From: an uncultured Gemmatimonadales bacterium
GTDB taxonomy: Bacteria > Gemmatimonadota > Gemmatimonadetes > Gemmatimonadales > GWC2-71-9
Assembly (NCBI GenBank): GCA_963795085.1
Contig: CAWCFX010000001.1
Coordinates: forward strand, 800,001 to 864,000
Length of the DNA: 64,000 nucleotides
Reading direction: 5' to 3'
Shown piece after piece: positions 21,001-27,000 of this stretch (within the stretch, counting starts at the first letter, position 1; the number at the start of each line of letters is the position of its first letter). A program made the position numbers.

Positions 21001-24000
21001 AGGGCAGGCCGATCCCTGCTCGTCCACTCTTCATATGCGGATCCTGACATGGCCGATTGGGCTTCGACCGAGCGAATCAAGGCAGAAATTCTCCTGGCCG
21101 AGGGTCGTACCCTGGCCGGGGAGTTGCACCTGCAGGCGCGGGTGGCGCAACATGACGGGCCGGAGACGCCGCTGGAAATGCTCAACCGGCCGGACGCCTT
21201 CTTTCCGGTCACCCTGGACGACGGCCGCATCGGGTTCATCGCCAAGTCGCAGGTCTCGGCGATCCGGAGCGCCAGCGCGATGACGCCCGCCGATCCGGAG
21301 CGGGTAAGCGCGGCCAAGACGATCGGCCTGGAAGTGGTCATGGCGGGCGGCGCCGAGTACCGCGGCTGGGCCGCCCTCGAACTGCCGCCGACCCGGGCGC
21401 GCACGCTGGACTACCTGAATGCATCGGGGCTGTTCTTCATGCTGGAGAGCGAGGACGCCGCCTGGTTCATCCACCGCGAATACGTGCGCATGGTGCGGCC
21501 CCTCGACTGAGGCTCCGCCCGGCGCCCGTTGCCAACGACACTTGCCCGGGATCCCGGGTTCACGATTTAGCTGACAGGAGCAGGATGGCGCGACTGGACA
21601 AGTTCATCCAGGTCATGCGGGACCAGAAGGCCGAATCGCTGCGGCTGGCCGCCGGCCAGCCGGCGGCACTGGTGATCGGCGGGATGCCAAAGCCGATCAC
21701 CCGGGACAACCTCGCCGCCCCCCAGATCCTGGCCCTGGTGCGGGAGCTTGCTCCGGCCGGGGTGCCGGGTTCCGACGGGGATGCCCAGGCCTTCCGCTAC
21801 GGGGAGGGAGCGGAGGCCGTTGATGTCCTGGTGCGCACCACGCCCGAAGGACTGGTGGCCGAGCTGCGGCCTGGACCGGCCGCCGGGAATGGAACGGCCG
21901 CTGCTCCTGCGGCGTCTCCGGCCGGGGCGCCCACCGCGGGCCCAGGGAGAGTGACCCTGCGGAGCGCCGTGGCCGCGGACGACCCCGCGGCCCGCACCGA
22001 AGTGGACCGGCTGCTCCGCATTCTCTCCGATTCCGGCGCCTCCGACCTGCATCTCCGCACCGGCGAGCCGCCCATCGTTCGCCGGGACGGCGAGCTGGTG
22101 CGGCTGGAGGAGCCGCCCGTCACGGCCGATGCTCTGCAGGCCATGCTGGCCAGCATCATGCCGCTCAAGGACTACGACGAGTTCCGGGAGAACGGCGACG
22201 CGGATTTCGCCTATGAGATTTCCGGCCTGGCTCGCTTCCGCGGCAACGCCGCCCTCGATCACAAGGGTCCCATGGCGGTGTTCCGGGTCATCCCCAGCGC
22301 GATTCTCAGCGCCGACCAGCTGGGGTTGAGCCGGGAGGTCCAGGCCCTCTGCAACCTGAACAAGGGGCTGGTGCTGGTGACCGGGCCCACCGGCTCGGGC
22401 AAGTCCACCACCCTCGCCGCGCTGGTGGACCGGGTGAACCGCACCCGGAGCAATCACCTCATCACCATCGAGGATCCCATCGAGTTCGTCCACGAAAGCA
22501 AGAAATGCCTGGTCACCCAGCGCCAGGTGAGCGTGCACACGAAGAGCTTCCGGCAGGCGCTGCGGGCCGCCCTCCGGGAAGACCCCGATATCATCCTGGT
22601 GGGCGAGATGCGCGACCTGGAGACCGTCTCCATCGCCATCGAGACCGCGGAGACCGGCCACCTGGTGTTCGGCACCCTGCACACCACCACGGCGGCCTCG
22701 ACGATCGACCGGATCATCGACCAGTTCCCGGTGGACCGGCAATCCCAGGTCCGGGTGATGCTGTCGGAGTCGCTCCGGGGTGTGGTCTCCCAGGTGCTCT
22801 GCCGCAAGACGGGCGGCGGACGGGTGGCGGCGCGGGAGGTCCTGCTCAGCATTCCGGCCGTCTCCAACCTCATCCGCGAAGGGAAGACCTTCCAGATCCC
22901 GTCCATCATGCAGACCAACCGGAAGACCGGCATGGTGACCCTGAACGATGCGCTGCTGGAGCTGGTGGACCAGGGCCTGGTGGAGCCCCAGGAAGCCTAT
23001 CTCAAGTCGGTCGAGAAGACCGCCCTGCTCGCCTCCCTCAAGGCGAAGCGGCACGACGTCACCTTCCTGGATGCCTAGGCCCGCCTCCCGCGATTAAGCT
23101 TCCCCCATGGATAGCCCTACCCTCGTCCTGGTCGCCCCCCAGGACATCGTCAACATCGCCAGCGCCGTCCGGATCTGCCGCAACTTCGGCATCACCGATC
23201 TCCGCCTGGTGACCCCGGCGGTGTTCGATCCCTGGCGGATCGAAGGCATCGCCCACAACACCGCGGCGCTGGTGGAGACCATCCGGATCTTCGATTCCCT
23301 CGACGCGGCGGTGGCGGACTGCGGCCTGGTCGTCGGCCTGACCGCGCGAGGCCGGACCGCCAAGCGGCACCTGCTCCGGCCCCGGGCCGCGGCCCGGGAG
23401 ATCGTGACCGCGCTGGGGGACGCCCCGGCCGCCATGGTCGCGGGACGGGAGGACAAGGGGCTCAGCAACGCCGAACTGGACCGTTGCCACCTGCTGGTGA
23501 CCATTCCCACCTCGCCCGACTATCCCTCCCTCAACCTGGCCCAGGCCGTCGCGGTGATGAGCTACGAGACCTGGCTGGCGCGGGGCGGGGAAGACCAGCC
23601 GGTCAAACCGCACCGCAAGCAGGCCGACCCCGCCCTGGCGGGCCAGATGGAAATGCTCTTCCAGGACTGGGAACGGTCGCTCTGGATCATCGAGTTCTTC
23701 AAGACCCGGCAGCCCGAGTCGGTGCTGCGCTCGCTCCGGGAAATTCTCTACCGGGCCCGGATGGACGGGCGGGAGGCGGCGCTGGTGCGGGCCATGGGGA
23801 TTGAAATCAGGAGGTTTACCGAGAGGAAAGGACTAACTGCAGAACTACAAAGCACGAAAGACGACAAAACAGACGTCAGTTGACCACCCTGCGGATGGCG
23901 AGCAGGGTGGCTTGAAAGTTCAGCAGTAAGCCGACCCGGAGATTGCTGGCCTTGAGATAGGAGCGCAGTTGCCTTTCATGCAGGTCGGTCAGGGTCTTGA

Positions 24001-27000
24001 CCGCCTTCAGCTCGACGATGATCTCTTCCTCGATAACCAGGTCCAGGCGGTGAAGGCCGACGTCGATTCCCTCGTAGAGCACGGTAATTTCTTTCTGGGA
24101 TTCAAAGGCGATCTGCCGCTTCGCCAGTTCCACGCTCATCGCCTTCTGATAAATCGACTCGATGAACCCAGGCCCCAGTGCCCGGTGCACGGCGATGGCG
24201 GCCCCGATCACCTTCCCCGAGGAAGGCTCGAACTCCAGCTCGGTTTCCGCAGCCCGGGATACCGGCAGGTCTTCGCCCGTGATGCCCAGCCCATCCGCCA
24301 TGTCGCTCCATCCTTTCACCATTGATAGCAGGGCATCGCCATAGCCCCGTCATCCCTTTTCACGCTGTCTGGGGCAGGAAATCGCAAGGCTTTCTAGTGA
24401 GATATGTGCTGAGGTCCACATGCGCCATTCGCCGGTTCTTCGATCTTTTGTATTTTGTCGTTCGGCGGTTGTTGACACCTGACGCCTCCCGCCCTCTTTA
24501 CCCTTCCCTAACTCCCACCCCCATATTAACTTCCGCGCCGCACACCGGACCCTTTCCCGGCCCCCTGGGCCGAGGTCGGCTTGGCGCGATCCACCGCATA
24601 CTGGGCCGCGAATTTCTACCGCGACCCTGACGAACCACCCCGGCCCCAGGCCCCCCTTCGGGACCTGCCGCCCATCGCGGCCGCGCGGTTCCGGATGCTG
24701 CGCGACACGCTCCGGTCCATCGAAGGCGTCCACGAGAAGGTCCGCTTCATTCGGCCCAACTGGAAATGGGCCTGGGAGTACTCGGTGCCGGCCCGCAAGC
24801 TCTGCTGGCTCCACGCCATGGAGACCGGTGTGGCGGGGACCTTTGCCATCACCGACGACGATACCCGGCACCTGGTGGCCGCCCGCCCTGCCGCCGTCAT
24901 CCTCCGCGCGGTCCGGGATGGCGTCCGCACCGGGCCGGTCACCTGGTGCTCGCTCGAGTTCACCGACCGCCGCTCGGTGGATGCCTTCCTGGGGTTCATG
25001 AAAAAGAAAGCGGCCTGGGTCGCCGCGTTTCCGCCGGAAAGCCGGGTGTTCCGGGGCCGGTCCGCCGGGTAGAATTCGCGGGAAATCCGCCCCGAGTGCG
25101 GGCTTGCTTTATCGTGAATGATTTCACAAACTTCTCCGGCCCCGAGTGCAGCCGCGCACGTCGAGGCACCTTTTTATCTCACGCCGGGTGAACAGCGCGT
25201 ATGCGTAAGCTCGTCCTTGTCGGGAGTGGAACCACGGCCCTGGCCCTCGCGGGTTTCTTCATCCTGCAGGGTGCCGGCGGTCCCACCCCCGCCGCGGCAC
25301 CCCAGGGCCAGCCGCCGGCGGCCCCCGCCAACCCGGTCGCCATCGAGGACACCGGGGCCCTGGCAGGACCCCGCCAGCCGATCTTCTTCCGCCACGACAT
25401 TCACGCCGGGCAGTACCAGATCCAGTGCCAGTACTGCCACTACTCCGTCAGCGTCTCGTCCGAGCCGGGCATCCCGACGGTGGAAACCTGCATGGGGTGC
25501 CACCTGGTCATCGCCGGGTCCGATAGCGGGGCCCGCACTGAAATCCGCAAACTCCGCCAGGCCAGCGCGGAGAAGAAACCCATCGAGTGGGTGCGGATCC
25601 ACGCCCTGGCCCGCCATGCGCACTTCCCCCACCAGCGGCATATCAAGGCGATGGGCCCCACCGCCTGCATGACCTGCCACGGCGACGTGCAGCGCATGCC
25701 CCAGGTGTACAAGGTCAACAACGTGACCAACATGGGCTTCTGCATTACCTGCCATATCGAACGAAAAGTCTCCCGCGACTGTACGGTGTGTCATTACTGA
25801 AGGGGGCAAGGGGGCAAGGGGGCAAGGGGGCAAGAGGGCAAGGGGGCAAAAGGGGGCAGGGGGGCCAGGGGGTACGCAATCGATGATGCATCAGAATCCC
25901 GGAGCATGAATGTCTGACGAAACCAGCCCAGCCGAAACCGGCACTCTCGACCGGCGGAAGTTCCTCACGGTGCTCGGCGTCACCGGGGGCGGCGCCGCGG
26001 TCCTGTCCGGCTGCTCGACCGACCGGATCGAGAAGCTGGTTCCCTACCTCGTCCAGTCCGAGAACCAGGTGCCCGGCGTCCCCACGGTCTATGCCAGCAC
26101 CTGTACCGAGTGCGCGGCCGCCTGCGGCCTCCACGTGCGGACCCGGGAGGGCCGGGCCATCAAGCTGGAAGGCAATCCCGAACACCCCGTCAATCGCGGC
26201 AAGCTCTGCTCCATGGGCCAGTCCTCGCTCCAGGCCCTCTACAACCCGGCCCGGCTCAAGGGCCCCATGGCGCGCGACGCGGCCGGCACCTTCACGGCGA
26301 TCACCTGGGACCAGGCCATCACCACCCTGGCGCAGCGGGTTTCCGCCGCGAACGGGCGCCTCGCGGTCATCTCGGGCGCCGGCCGGGGCACCTTCTCCGA
26401 CCTGCTGAGCGACTGGGCGGATGCCGCGGGCGGCCGGGTGGTGCGCTACCGGCCGCTCGACCACGAGGCGCTTCGCGCCGGCACCAGCCAGGTGTTCGGG
26501 TCCGACCAGCTCCCCGCCTACAACTTCGCCGCGGCCCGCTACATCCTCTCCTTCGGCGCCGACTTCCTGGAGCACTGGCATTCCCCGGTCGAAAACCAGC
26601 GCGGCTACGCCGAGGCGCGGGCGCCCAAAGACGGCGAAGCGGCGCGGCACGTGGCCATCGCGCCCCGGCTCTCGCTCACCGCGATGAACGCGGACGAGTG
26701 GCACGCCAGCCGGCCCGGCGGCGACACCGCCGTGGCCCTGGCCATGGCCAACGTGATCCTCGGCGAGCGCACCGGGTCGCCCGCGGATGCCAATGCCGTG
26801 CGGGGTGCCCTGGCGCGGTTCACCCCCGAAATGGCCGCTGAGGCCAGCGGGCTCGGCCCCGAGGTCATCCGCCGGCTGGCCCGGGAGTTCGCGTCGGCCA
26901 GTCCCAGCCTGGCCGTCGCCGGCGGCTTGGCCGACCAGCACCGCGGCGCCGGCGAACTCTGCGCGGCGGTCAACCTGCTGAACTACGTGGCGGGCAACGT

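What a model noticed while it worked through the whole genome (the two positions that open the first line are those of the whole stretch)
23830..24440. GxxExxY (PD-(D/E)xK) genes are bracketed by inverted 9-nt-periodic arms that recur as dispersed hairpin doublets
All four GxxExxY genes (g00726, g01053, g01647, g02698) lie between short inverted arms built of CACGAA/CGCAGA-type 9-nt units, a different variant for each paralogue. The same arms occur without the gene as intergenic doublets and arrays, like REPINs around a RAYT.
Evidence so far: Arms read directly here and in relatives. Inverted local-alignment score >=24 in 4 of 4 here and 16 of 21 relatives' loci, direct score in 4 of 21, control 88 of 663 genes. 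g00726-type motif: 37 copies in 17 intergenic regions; g02698-type: 19 copies in 11; g00726 and g02698 flanks hit 14 and 17 intergenic regions. Searches 60 and 84: three papers name GxxExxY, none on repeats (listings only).
(Added by a program. Inside this text positions count along the whole contig: contig position 800,001 is position 1 of the stretch shown here. "Call 12" and the like, gene names such as g00115 and contig names such as C1 are that model's own, and its searches are not shown. The text may have been shortened before it was handed on; [...] marks where a part breaks off. The agent that wrote the report below was given it as the finding of a first reader that could run no searches.)

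Follow-up and report, generated by a model that had tools for sequence, protein, structure and literature searches.

The report
Nuclease gene with its own repeats
A small nuclease-like gene of unknown function sits between two mirror-image runs of short DNA units; each protein lineage has its own unit, and genomes carry many gene-less copies of a unit almost only when they carry the matching protein, which points to an apparently undescribed selfish DNA system with a directly testable enzyme.

Summary
Confirmed and extended. The window holds a 636-bp insertion (23835-24470): a GxxExxY gene between inverted arms of phased 7-nt units spaced 8-10 nt (not strictly 9). It is absent at this junction in 27 of 27 relatives. 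Inverted arms flank 90 of 111 family loci and 71 of 79 loci from other genomes across about 19 phyla, against 35 of 1031 control genes. Dispersed arms are abundant in 39 of 60 gene-bearing and 4 of 91 gene-free genomes, and unit type follows protein clade: GAAA in 11/15 vs 4/42, RGAT in 17/30 vs 1/27, cross-tests null. RAYT-type Y1 genes do not explain it (0 of 52). The Cas4/RecB-like catalytic residues are near-invariant. Best reading: a cognate nuclease-plus-repeat selfish cassette that works like Ssn/SRM or RAYT/REPIN but belongs to neither. Junctions are imprecise with no fixed target duplication; cleavage and mobilisation are unproven, and non-nuclease four-helix-bundle genes share the layout. 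This scan found the family before on other DNA; my searches found no paper describing it.

The parts
23835..24470 (-). Whole cassette, about 636 bp, inserted in the last codons of a trmJ-like gene
   Evidence: Homology with the empty site in congener G065 stops exactly at 23834; spacing is 761 vs 107 bp. The right junction is approximate because the empty site is diverged. An independent contig spans the left junction (23803-24011) with 0 differences.
23835..23876 (+). Downstream arm: degenerate CACGAAA-type units reading inward; also supplies the new C-terminus of the trmJ-like ORF
23876..24322 (-). GxxExxY gene, 148 aa (TIGR04256/PF13366); PD-(D/E)xK fold with E55, D94, E104, K106, Q118; member of the 'GAAA' clade
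24323..24430 (-). AT-richer leader between arm and start codon; probable own promoter region (inferred)
   Evidence: no sigma-70 consensus found
24431..24470 (-). Upstream arm: degenerate units reading inward, inverted relative to the other arm
23107..23883 (+). Host trmJ-like RNA methyltransferase gene (left flank); its last codons were replaced by arm sequence
   Evidence: TIGR00050 over cut-off; G065 orthologue at 77% ends differently
24581..25072 (+). Conserved hypothetical gene (right flank), adjacent to trmJ in relatives
1305..1345 (-). Gene-less single arm of the same repeat family elsewhere in the window

Best explanation
A selfish 'nuclease plus cognate repeat' cassette. SHOWN: gene and inverted arms form a unit that is gained and lost at gene junctions and travels between phyla together; each protein clade has its own 7-nt unit; gene-less inward-facing doublets and tandem arrays of a unit are abundant almost only where a gene of the matching clade is present; the catalytic residues are conserved. 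INFERRED: the small Cas4/RecB-like protein binds the phased units sequence-specifically, probably as several protomers along the 8-10-nt repeat and possibly on single-stranded or hairpin DNA. It nicks beside the arms, and host repair or template switching then pastes the cassette or a gene-less doublet elsewhere or amplifies it locally. The two junctions form independently, which would explain why some sites lose target DNA, a minority duplicate about 18-43 bp, and there is no fixed target duplication.
For: Arms at 90/111 and 71/79 loci vs 35/1031 controls. Absent at the window junction in 27/27 relatives. The genome's four paralogues are not one clade (AU p 7e-5). Triple-unit pattern >=10 copies in 39/60 gene-bearing vs 4/91 gene-free genomes, 34/60 after subtracting 4 hits per gene; reversed-pattern control 9/60 vs 13/91; within-genus contrasts 14 higher, 1 lower, 1 tie. 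Type-specific: GAAA doublets >=10 in 11/15 genomes with the window's clade, 4/42 with other clades only, 0/91 without the gene; RGAT 17/30, 1/27, 0/91; cross-tests null (7/30 vs 8/27; 5/15 vs 13/42). Tree: 10 of 11 GAAA arms lie in one 97/89 clade with the window protein and 22 of 23 RGAT arms in a 98/91 clade; 37 label changes vs 67 shuffled. The five closest cross-phylum relatives (from at least four phyla) all carry GAAA arms. Unit cores match between arms at 0.82-0.97 vs linkers 0.60, like binding sites. D94 and E104 111/111, E55, K106 and Q118 110/111; pN<pS in 15/15 pairs. Y1/RAYT-positive, GxxExxY-negative genomes 0/52; GxxExxY-positive, Y1-negative 10/19.
Against: No cleavage, binding or transposition was observed. 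Co-occurrence could arise by descent (doublets derived from local cassettes) whatever enzyme moves them, and kin are not independent. Four-helix-bundle genes, not known as nucleases (recalled), show the same layout with other tandem units at 4 of 4 loci read. No clean arm-to-arm insertion was found: 60 bp replaced in G099 vs G029, and in the G098/G028 comparison the arms sat inside larger unaligned stretches (16 breakpoints compared). No short target duplication (5/66 vs 36/300 permuted). 21 of 60 gene-bearing genomes have fewer than 10 triple hits, partly because the pattern misses some unit types. In this genome 18 doublet spacers show no likeness to cassette interiors. Two of four sites are shared with congener G065, so copies can persist vertically.
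Confidence: 0.55

Rival explanations
1. Passenger model: the arms are the mobile entity, moved by host replication/repair or another enzyme; the GxxExxY gene rides along, and the clade-unit match reflects physical linkage only.
For: Four-helix-bundle genes have the same layout. Junctions are imprecise and the intergenic regions are crowded with several repeat families. One gene-less doublet looks like an internally deleted cassette (L005, read by eye). An earlier, unchecked scan note reports GxxExxY as cargo of an IS-derived cassette.
Against: Abundant repeats rarely persist without the gene (4/91 generic, 0/91 for each type). Y1 genes do not predict them (0/52), nor do four-helix-bundle genes (4 of 70 such genomes lacking GxxExxY; my count, with three unlisted negatives inferred). 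All units in both arms change together while linkers drift (L069, L073, L071). The active site is conserved.
Confidence: 0.2
2. Ssn-like host function: the protein is a site-specific (single-strand) nuclease that cuts at the repeats to restrict or modulate incoming DNA or recombination; spread of the repeats is a by-product.
For: Same gene-repeat architecture and genome association as Ssn/SRM (PMC11893778, sections 7, 10, 12). Nearest folds are nucleases such as Cas4 and lambda exonuclease. Purifying selection.
Against: Patchy distribution, 1-15 copies, frequent broken copies, different alleles at one site on separate contigs of G065, and cross-phylum spread look selfish rather than domesticated.
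Confidence: 0.15
3. RNA-level element: the arms pair in the transcript, as in rRNA intervening sequences, so that the insert is tolerated, processed out or stabilises mRNA; the protein acts on RNA.
For: Inward-facing doublets fold better than shuffles (22 of 22 at z <= -2 on the top strand, though selected for inverted motifs). Linker lengths match between arms in 88 of 96 cases, and most mismatches are G/A.
Against: Linkers are much less complementary than cores (0.60 vs 0.82-0.97). The window cassette does not pair its arms in the DNA fold. No Rfam match at the four loci. Cassettes lie in either orientation between genes, and tRNA genes occur in only 4 of 120 loci.
Confidence: 0.09
4. Chance similarity of short low-complexity sequences.
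For: Three of the four loci in this genome score only modestly.
Against: The strand asymmetry, controls, genome-level and clade-level results above.
Confidence: 0.01

Closest known systems
Ssn nucleases with SRM/NTS repeats (Chenal et al. 2025, PMC11893778; abstract and sections 7, 10, 12 read)
   Same: Small single-domain nuclease gene flanked on both sides by its cognate repeat; the repeat is dispersed between genes; gene and repeat co-occur across genomes; homologues have their own repeat variants.
   Different: Ssn is GIY-YIG, this is PD-(D/E)xK. SRM is a semi-palindromic hairpin, these arms are directional arrays of phased 7-nt units. Ssn activity is demonstrated, this one is not.
RAYT/TnpA-REP with REP/REPIN/BIME (PMC8049555, PMC5581495, PMC8266576; passages read)
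   Same: Inverted doublets with variable spacers, local tandem arrays, intergenic location, more repeats where the gene is present.
   Different: RAYT is an HUH/Y1 transposase, mostly single-copy and vertical; REPs are palindromes behind a tetranucleotide such as GTAG. Here the gene is multi-copy, polyphyletic within a genome, site-variable and independent of Y1 genes.
Cas4 / RecB / lambda-exonuclease-type PD-(D/E)xK nucleases
   Same: Best structural match is SSO0001 (4ic1): Foldseek E 6e-4; VIA Z 8.3, rmsd 3.0 A, 98 aligned, tied with other restriction-like folds. E-D-ExK-Q motif order (motif labels recalled).
   Different: No cysteines, so no Fe-S cluster; much smaller; no CRISPR context at the four loci read.
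IS elements with MITE derivatives
   Same: Gene between inverted ends, gene-less derivatives, filled and empty sites.
   Different: No DDE, Y or S transposase; ends imperfect and periodic; no fixed target duplication; junctions imprecise.
Four-helix-bundle / 23S rRNA IVS protein cassettes (PF05635)
   Same: A small gene between inverted arrays of 7-8-nt tandem units, in the same genomes.
   Different: Different units; the protein is not known as a nuclease (recalled).

Membership tests
GxxExxY / PDDEXK_3 (TIGR04256, PF13366) | HMM match over the curated cut-off | tested here: met
   141 bits vs cut-off 35; 137.8 vs 22
PD-(D/E)xK nuclease superfamily | Restriction-like fold with conserved E, D, E-x-K (and Q) residues | tested here: met
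   Model pLDDT 87; folds; residues in 110-111 of 111; PF13366 is listed as function unknown in PMC3424549 (passage)
PD-(D/E)xK nuclease superfamily | Measured nuclease activity | not testable with these tools
   needs purified protein
Cas4 family | Four-cysteine Fe-S cluster (feature recalled) | tested here: not met
   The protein has no cysteine
RAYT/REPIN | HUH/Y1 transposase | tested here: not met
   Cassette gene is PF13366; Y1 genes lie elsewhere and do not predict the repeats
RAYT/REPIN | REP = tetranucleotide plus palindrome | tested here: not met
   Arms read directly are purine-rich directional unit arrays; definition from PMC8266576. Judged by reading, with no formal palindrome scan.
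RAYT/REPIN | Inverted doublets able to form hairpins, intergenic | tested here: met
RAYT/REPIN | Single-copy, vertically inherited gene | tested here: not met
   1-15 copies; four paralogues not a clade; nearest relatives in other phyla
Ssn/SRM | GIY-YIG (cd10448) domain | tested here: not met
   PD-(D/E)xK family and fold instead
Ssn/SRM | Gene flanked by a cognate repeat that is abundant in gene-bearing genomes | tested here: met
Ssn/SRM | Site-specific ssDNA cleavage near the repeat | not testable with these tools
   bench assay
IS/MITE | Terminal inverted repeats | tested here: met
   imperfect and periodic
IS/MITE | Fixed-length target duplication | tested here: not met
   5/66 vs 36/300; long repeats at 4 of 63 only
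IS/MITE | Precise arm-to-arm insertion into an empty site | tested here: inconclusive
   Left junction sharp; replacements elsewhere; available pairs only 91-95% identical at best
rRNA intervening sequence | Location inside an rRNA gene | tested here: not met
   No Rfam hit at the four loci; window flanks are protein genes

The most novel reading that the evidence does not exclude
GxxExxY is the sole catalytic protein of an undescribed class of minimal mobile elements: a roughly 120-residue Cas4/RecB-like enzyme that reads phased 7-nt units with a clade-specific code (candidate determinant: residue 121 of the QxxxY motif, S/N/T tracking GAAA/RGAT/RRAG, confounded by ancestry) and mobilises both its own cassette and gene-less doublets without any DDE, HUH, tyrosine or serine chemistry.
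Probability: 0.3. Interest if true: 0.9.

Novelty: new variant of a known kind. Interest (0 to 1): 0.74.

Why it matters
GxxExxY is a widespread family still listed as 'function unknown' (PMC3424549, passage). The clade-to-unit match supplies named substrates and built-in negative controls, so its function becomes directly testable. It would be a third, independent solution (after HUH RAYT/REP and GIY-YIG Ssn/SRM) to pairing a tiny nuclease with a dispersed repeat, and it would explain an abundant class of intergenic repeats in many little-studied phyla. If the specificity code is real, it is also a natural set of very small sequence-specific nucleases.

Tried and rejected
Rfam: no match at the 4 cassette loci or at 3 relatives' trmJ loci. 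No promoter or terminator consensus. Fixed short target duplication rejected. An apparent 26-bp duplication at one G098/G028 breakpoint was a weak, imperfect overlap, with the arms well inside the insert. Of 30 G028/G150 stretches fetched, only part of the first 18 were compared (16 breakpoints); the 12 were not analysed. DNA searches gave no usable empty site. Sequencing runs: no RNA holder listed, small shares only, and no contig skipping the cassette, which is not evidence either way. Y1/RAYT and four-helix-bundle genes rejected as predictors of these repeats. Literature: 'GxxExxY' 3 papers, 2 listed (I read one passage of the bioRxiv RT paper, where it lies next to a CRISPR-type RT and another pipeline appears to read it as cas4); PDDEXK_3/TIGR04256/PF13366 2 papers; REPIN/RAYT, Cas4-like mobile elements, four-helix bundle, Ssn, small dispersed repeats, five unit strings 0 papers. 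None describes this link, judged from listings. The library lacks most subscription papers and I read no supplements; the Ssn paper's supplementary tables could mention this family.
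Full report
1. What is at the coordinates. The ORF at 23876-24322 (-) is a GxxExxY protein (TIGR04256, E 2e-41). It lies between a trmJ-like gene (23107-23883 +) and a conserved hypothetical gene (24581-25072 +). The genome holds four PF13366 genes, one of which appears frameshifted near its start. Each lies between inverted arms with a different unit variant. The window arms span 23835-23876 and 24431-24470.

2. More than chance. I scored 300 nt upstream against 200 nt downstream for 111 of the 162 matches found in 151 genomes of the family (weaker or partial hits, one duplicate and one array left out). 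Inverted score >=16: 90 of 111; direct: 20 of 111; control genes 35 and 53 of 1031. A locus's own downstream flank was its best partner among all 111 in 53 cases. In 79 of 80 further loci from about 19 phyla, including one archaeon, 71 passed, with 17 direct (one locus too short). The four loci of this genome score only 16, 13, 16 and 28, and the window cassette does not fold arm-to-arm, so this copy is degenerate. Units are CRCRRA-type, spaced 8, 9 or 10 nt (94, 111 and 47 times) and read inward.

3. Dispersed copies. Fuzzy motifs gave 62 (window type), 32, 7 and 7 hits, of which 60, 31, 7 and 5 were intergenic under my crude gene calls, and none in 1 Mb of Markov control. Neighbouring arms face inward 25 times and outward 8 times. 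The 22 short inward pairs fold better than shuffles, as expected from their selection. Arrays are tandem copies of doublet plus local spacer. Spacers of 18 doublets do not resemble the cassette interiors; one relative shows a doublet that looks like an internally deleted cassette (L005).

4. It is an insertion. Of 69 relatives with the right-flank gene I examined 29 loci; 27 had trmJ adjacent and none had GxxExxY. In congener G065 homology ends exactly where the left arm begins. An independent contig spans that junction with no difference. G065 has 15 cassettes: two sites are shared with this genome but with diverged arms and protein, several are empty here, and two sites carry different cassette alleles on separate contigs, each with both arms changed together. 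The ftsK-downstream junction (gene name recalled from the sequence context) holds a window-clade cassette in two genera and is empty in G000 and G029. The four paralogues here are not a clade (AU p 7e-5).

5. A triple-unit pattern reached 10 copies in 39 of 60 gene-bearing and 4 of 91 gene-free genomes (rho 0.72; 34 of 60 after subtracting four hits per gene; 29 of 48 vs 2 of 66 among genomes >=90% complete). The reversed pattern gave 9 of 60 vs 13 of 91, and within-genus contrasts were 14 higher, 1 lower, 1 tie. Against: 21 gene-bearing genomes have fewer than 10. On a 111-protein tree (131 columns, bootstrap not fully settled), 10 of 11 GAAA-arm loci fall in one 97/89 clade with the window protein and 22 of 23 RGAT loci in a 98/91 clade; 26 loci had no class. 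I assigned proteins of 57 of the 60 genomes to clades by tree or best hit. GAAA doublets were abundant in 11 of 15 genomes with that clade, 4 of 42 with other clades only and 0 of 91 without the gene; RGAT in 17 of 30, 1 of 27 and 0 of 91; swapped tests were null. The five nearest relatives from other phyla all have GAAA arms, but nine more distant best-hit members of that clade have other units and one has RGAT. Y1/RAYT genes do not predict the repeats: 0 of 52 without GxxExxY, 10 of 19 with GxxExxY and no Y1. Kin are not independent, so p-values overstate. Three of the 151 genomes (G014, G068, G134) are unpublished; they enter these tallies, and one of the 111 loci (L009) is from G014.

6. 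The protein. The model (pLDDT 87) matches Cas4 SSO0001 best (Foldseek E 6e-4; VIA Z 8.3, rmsd 3.0 A over 98 residues, tied with other restriction-like folds). E55, D94, E104, K106 and Q118 are kept in 110-111 of 111 proteins, and pN<pS in 15 of 15 chosen pairs. There are no cysteines, so no Fe-S site. Residue 121 tracks unit class best, confounded by ancestry.

7. What the arms look like functionally. In 158 unit pairs from 62 loci, variable core positions match between arms at 0.82-0.97 (permuted 0.41-0.57, except position 6 at 0.93) and between neighbours within an arm at 0.81-0.99. Linkers match at 0.60 (permuted 0.34) but keep their length in 88 of 96. This fits phased binding sites with a secondary capacity to pair.

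8. Junctions. There is no fixed short target duplication (5 of 66 vs 36 of 300). Long direct repeats lie outside the arms at 4 of 63 loci (0.1% permuted): an exact 26-bp tRNA-Ile 3' end, two tandem arrays, and one that is arm sequence itself. Read by eye, a tRNA-Gln 3' end (L083) and a 32-bp segment alternating with elements in an Rhs-type array (L080) show the same; the Rhs case is complex and one element class lacks the second copy. Elsewhere target DNA is replaced (616 bp for 60 bp) or the arms sit within larger unaligned stretches. This argues against a precise transposase and fits nick-initiated, host-completed events (inference).

9. Against the causal reading. Four-helix-bundle genes, present in 128 of 151 genomes, are bracketed by inverted tandem units at 4 of 4 loci read, although they are not known as nucleases (recalled). 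A shared host process may therefore move both kinds of cassette. Nothing here shows binding, cutting or movement.

10. Comparison and verdict. It works like Ssn/SRM (PMC11893778; abstract and sections 7, 10, 12 read) and RAYT/REPIN (PMC8049555, PMC5581495, PMC8266576; passages), but fails their defining enzyme and repeat features. Eight searches (listings, plus passages) found no paper linking GxxExxY to repeats; subscription papers and supplements were not seen. Earlier notes of this scan report the same family on other DNA; they were used as leads only. Verdict: real, new variant of the nuclease-plus-cognate-repeat kind; interest 0.74.

Noticed in passing
L040, L041, L043, L046, L052-L054, L056, L057, L061, L063, L064, just after trmJ: A conserved, partly self-complementary motif of about 100 nt follows trmJ in several genera but not in this genome; no Rfam match in the 3 loci tested. 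Candidate structured RNA.
   Followed up: partly
window 25800-25875, 14350-14389, 32700-32930, 34520-34780, 6726-6785, 60069-60100: Intergenic tandem arrays of 7-9-nt units, at 34520-34780 with a short inverted run; a second repeat class resembling the arms seen at four-helix-bundle genes.
   Followed up: partly
L322-L325: Four-helix-bundle (PF05635) genes are bracketed by inverted tandem 7-8-nt units, a parallel cassette system; this genome has 6 such genes.
   Followed up: partly
L080 (G070:C3:1488000-1507500): Full and truncated GxxExxY cassettes alternate with a 32-bp segment of an Rhs core motif, repeat-spacer fashion, with both junction types ending in the same three bases on opposite strands.
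   Followed up: partly
L119 and L083: Cassettes at the 3' ends of tRNA-Ile and tRNA-Gln with that end duplicated (26 bp exact in L119).
   Followed up: partly
L069/L073 and L071/L076 (G065): The same flanks carry different cassette alleles on different contigs of one assembly; strain variation or tandem copies, useful for junction mapping.
   Followed up: no
G034, G050, G092, G129: 16-29 triple-unit hits but no GxxExxY gene found (83-98% complete): orphan repeat populations or unassembled genes.
   Followed up: no
window 16677-18104 and 18331-20025: Two tandem subtilisin-like protease ORFs with PKD-like tails, judged from the translation only.
   Followed up: no
window 25201-30283: Cytochrome c3 / molybdopterin-Fe-S / NrfD-like operon resembling alternative complex III, judged from the translation only.
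   Followed up: no
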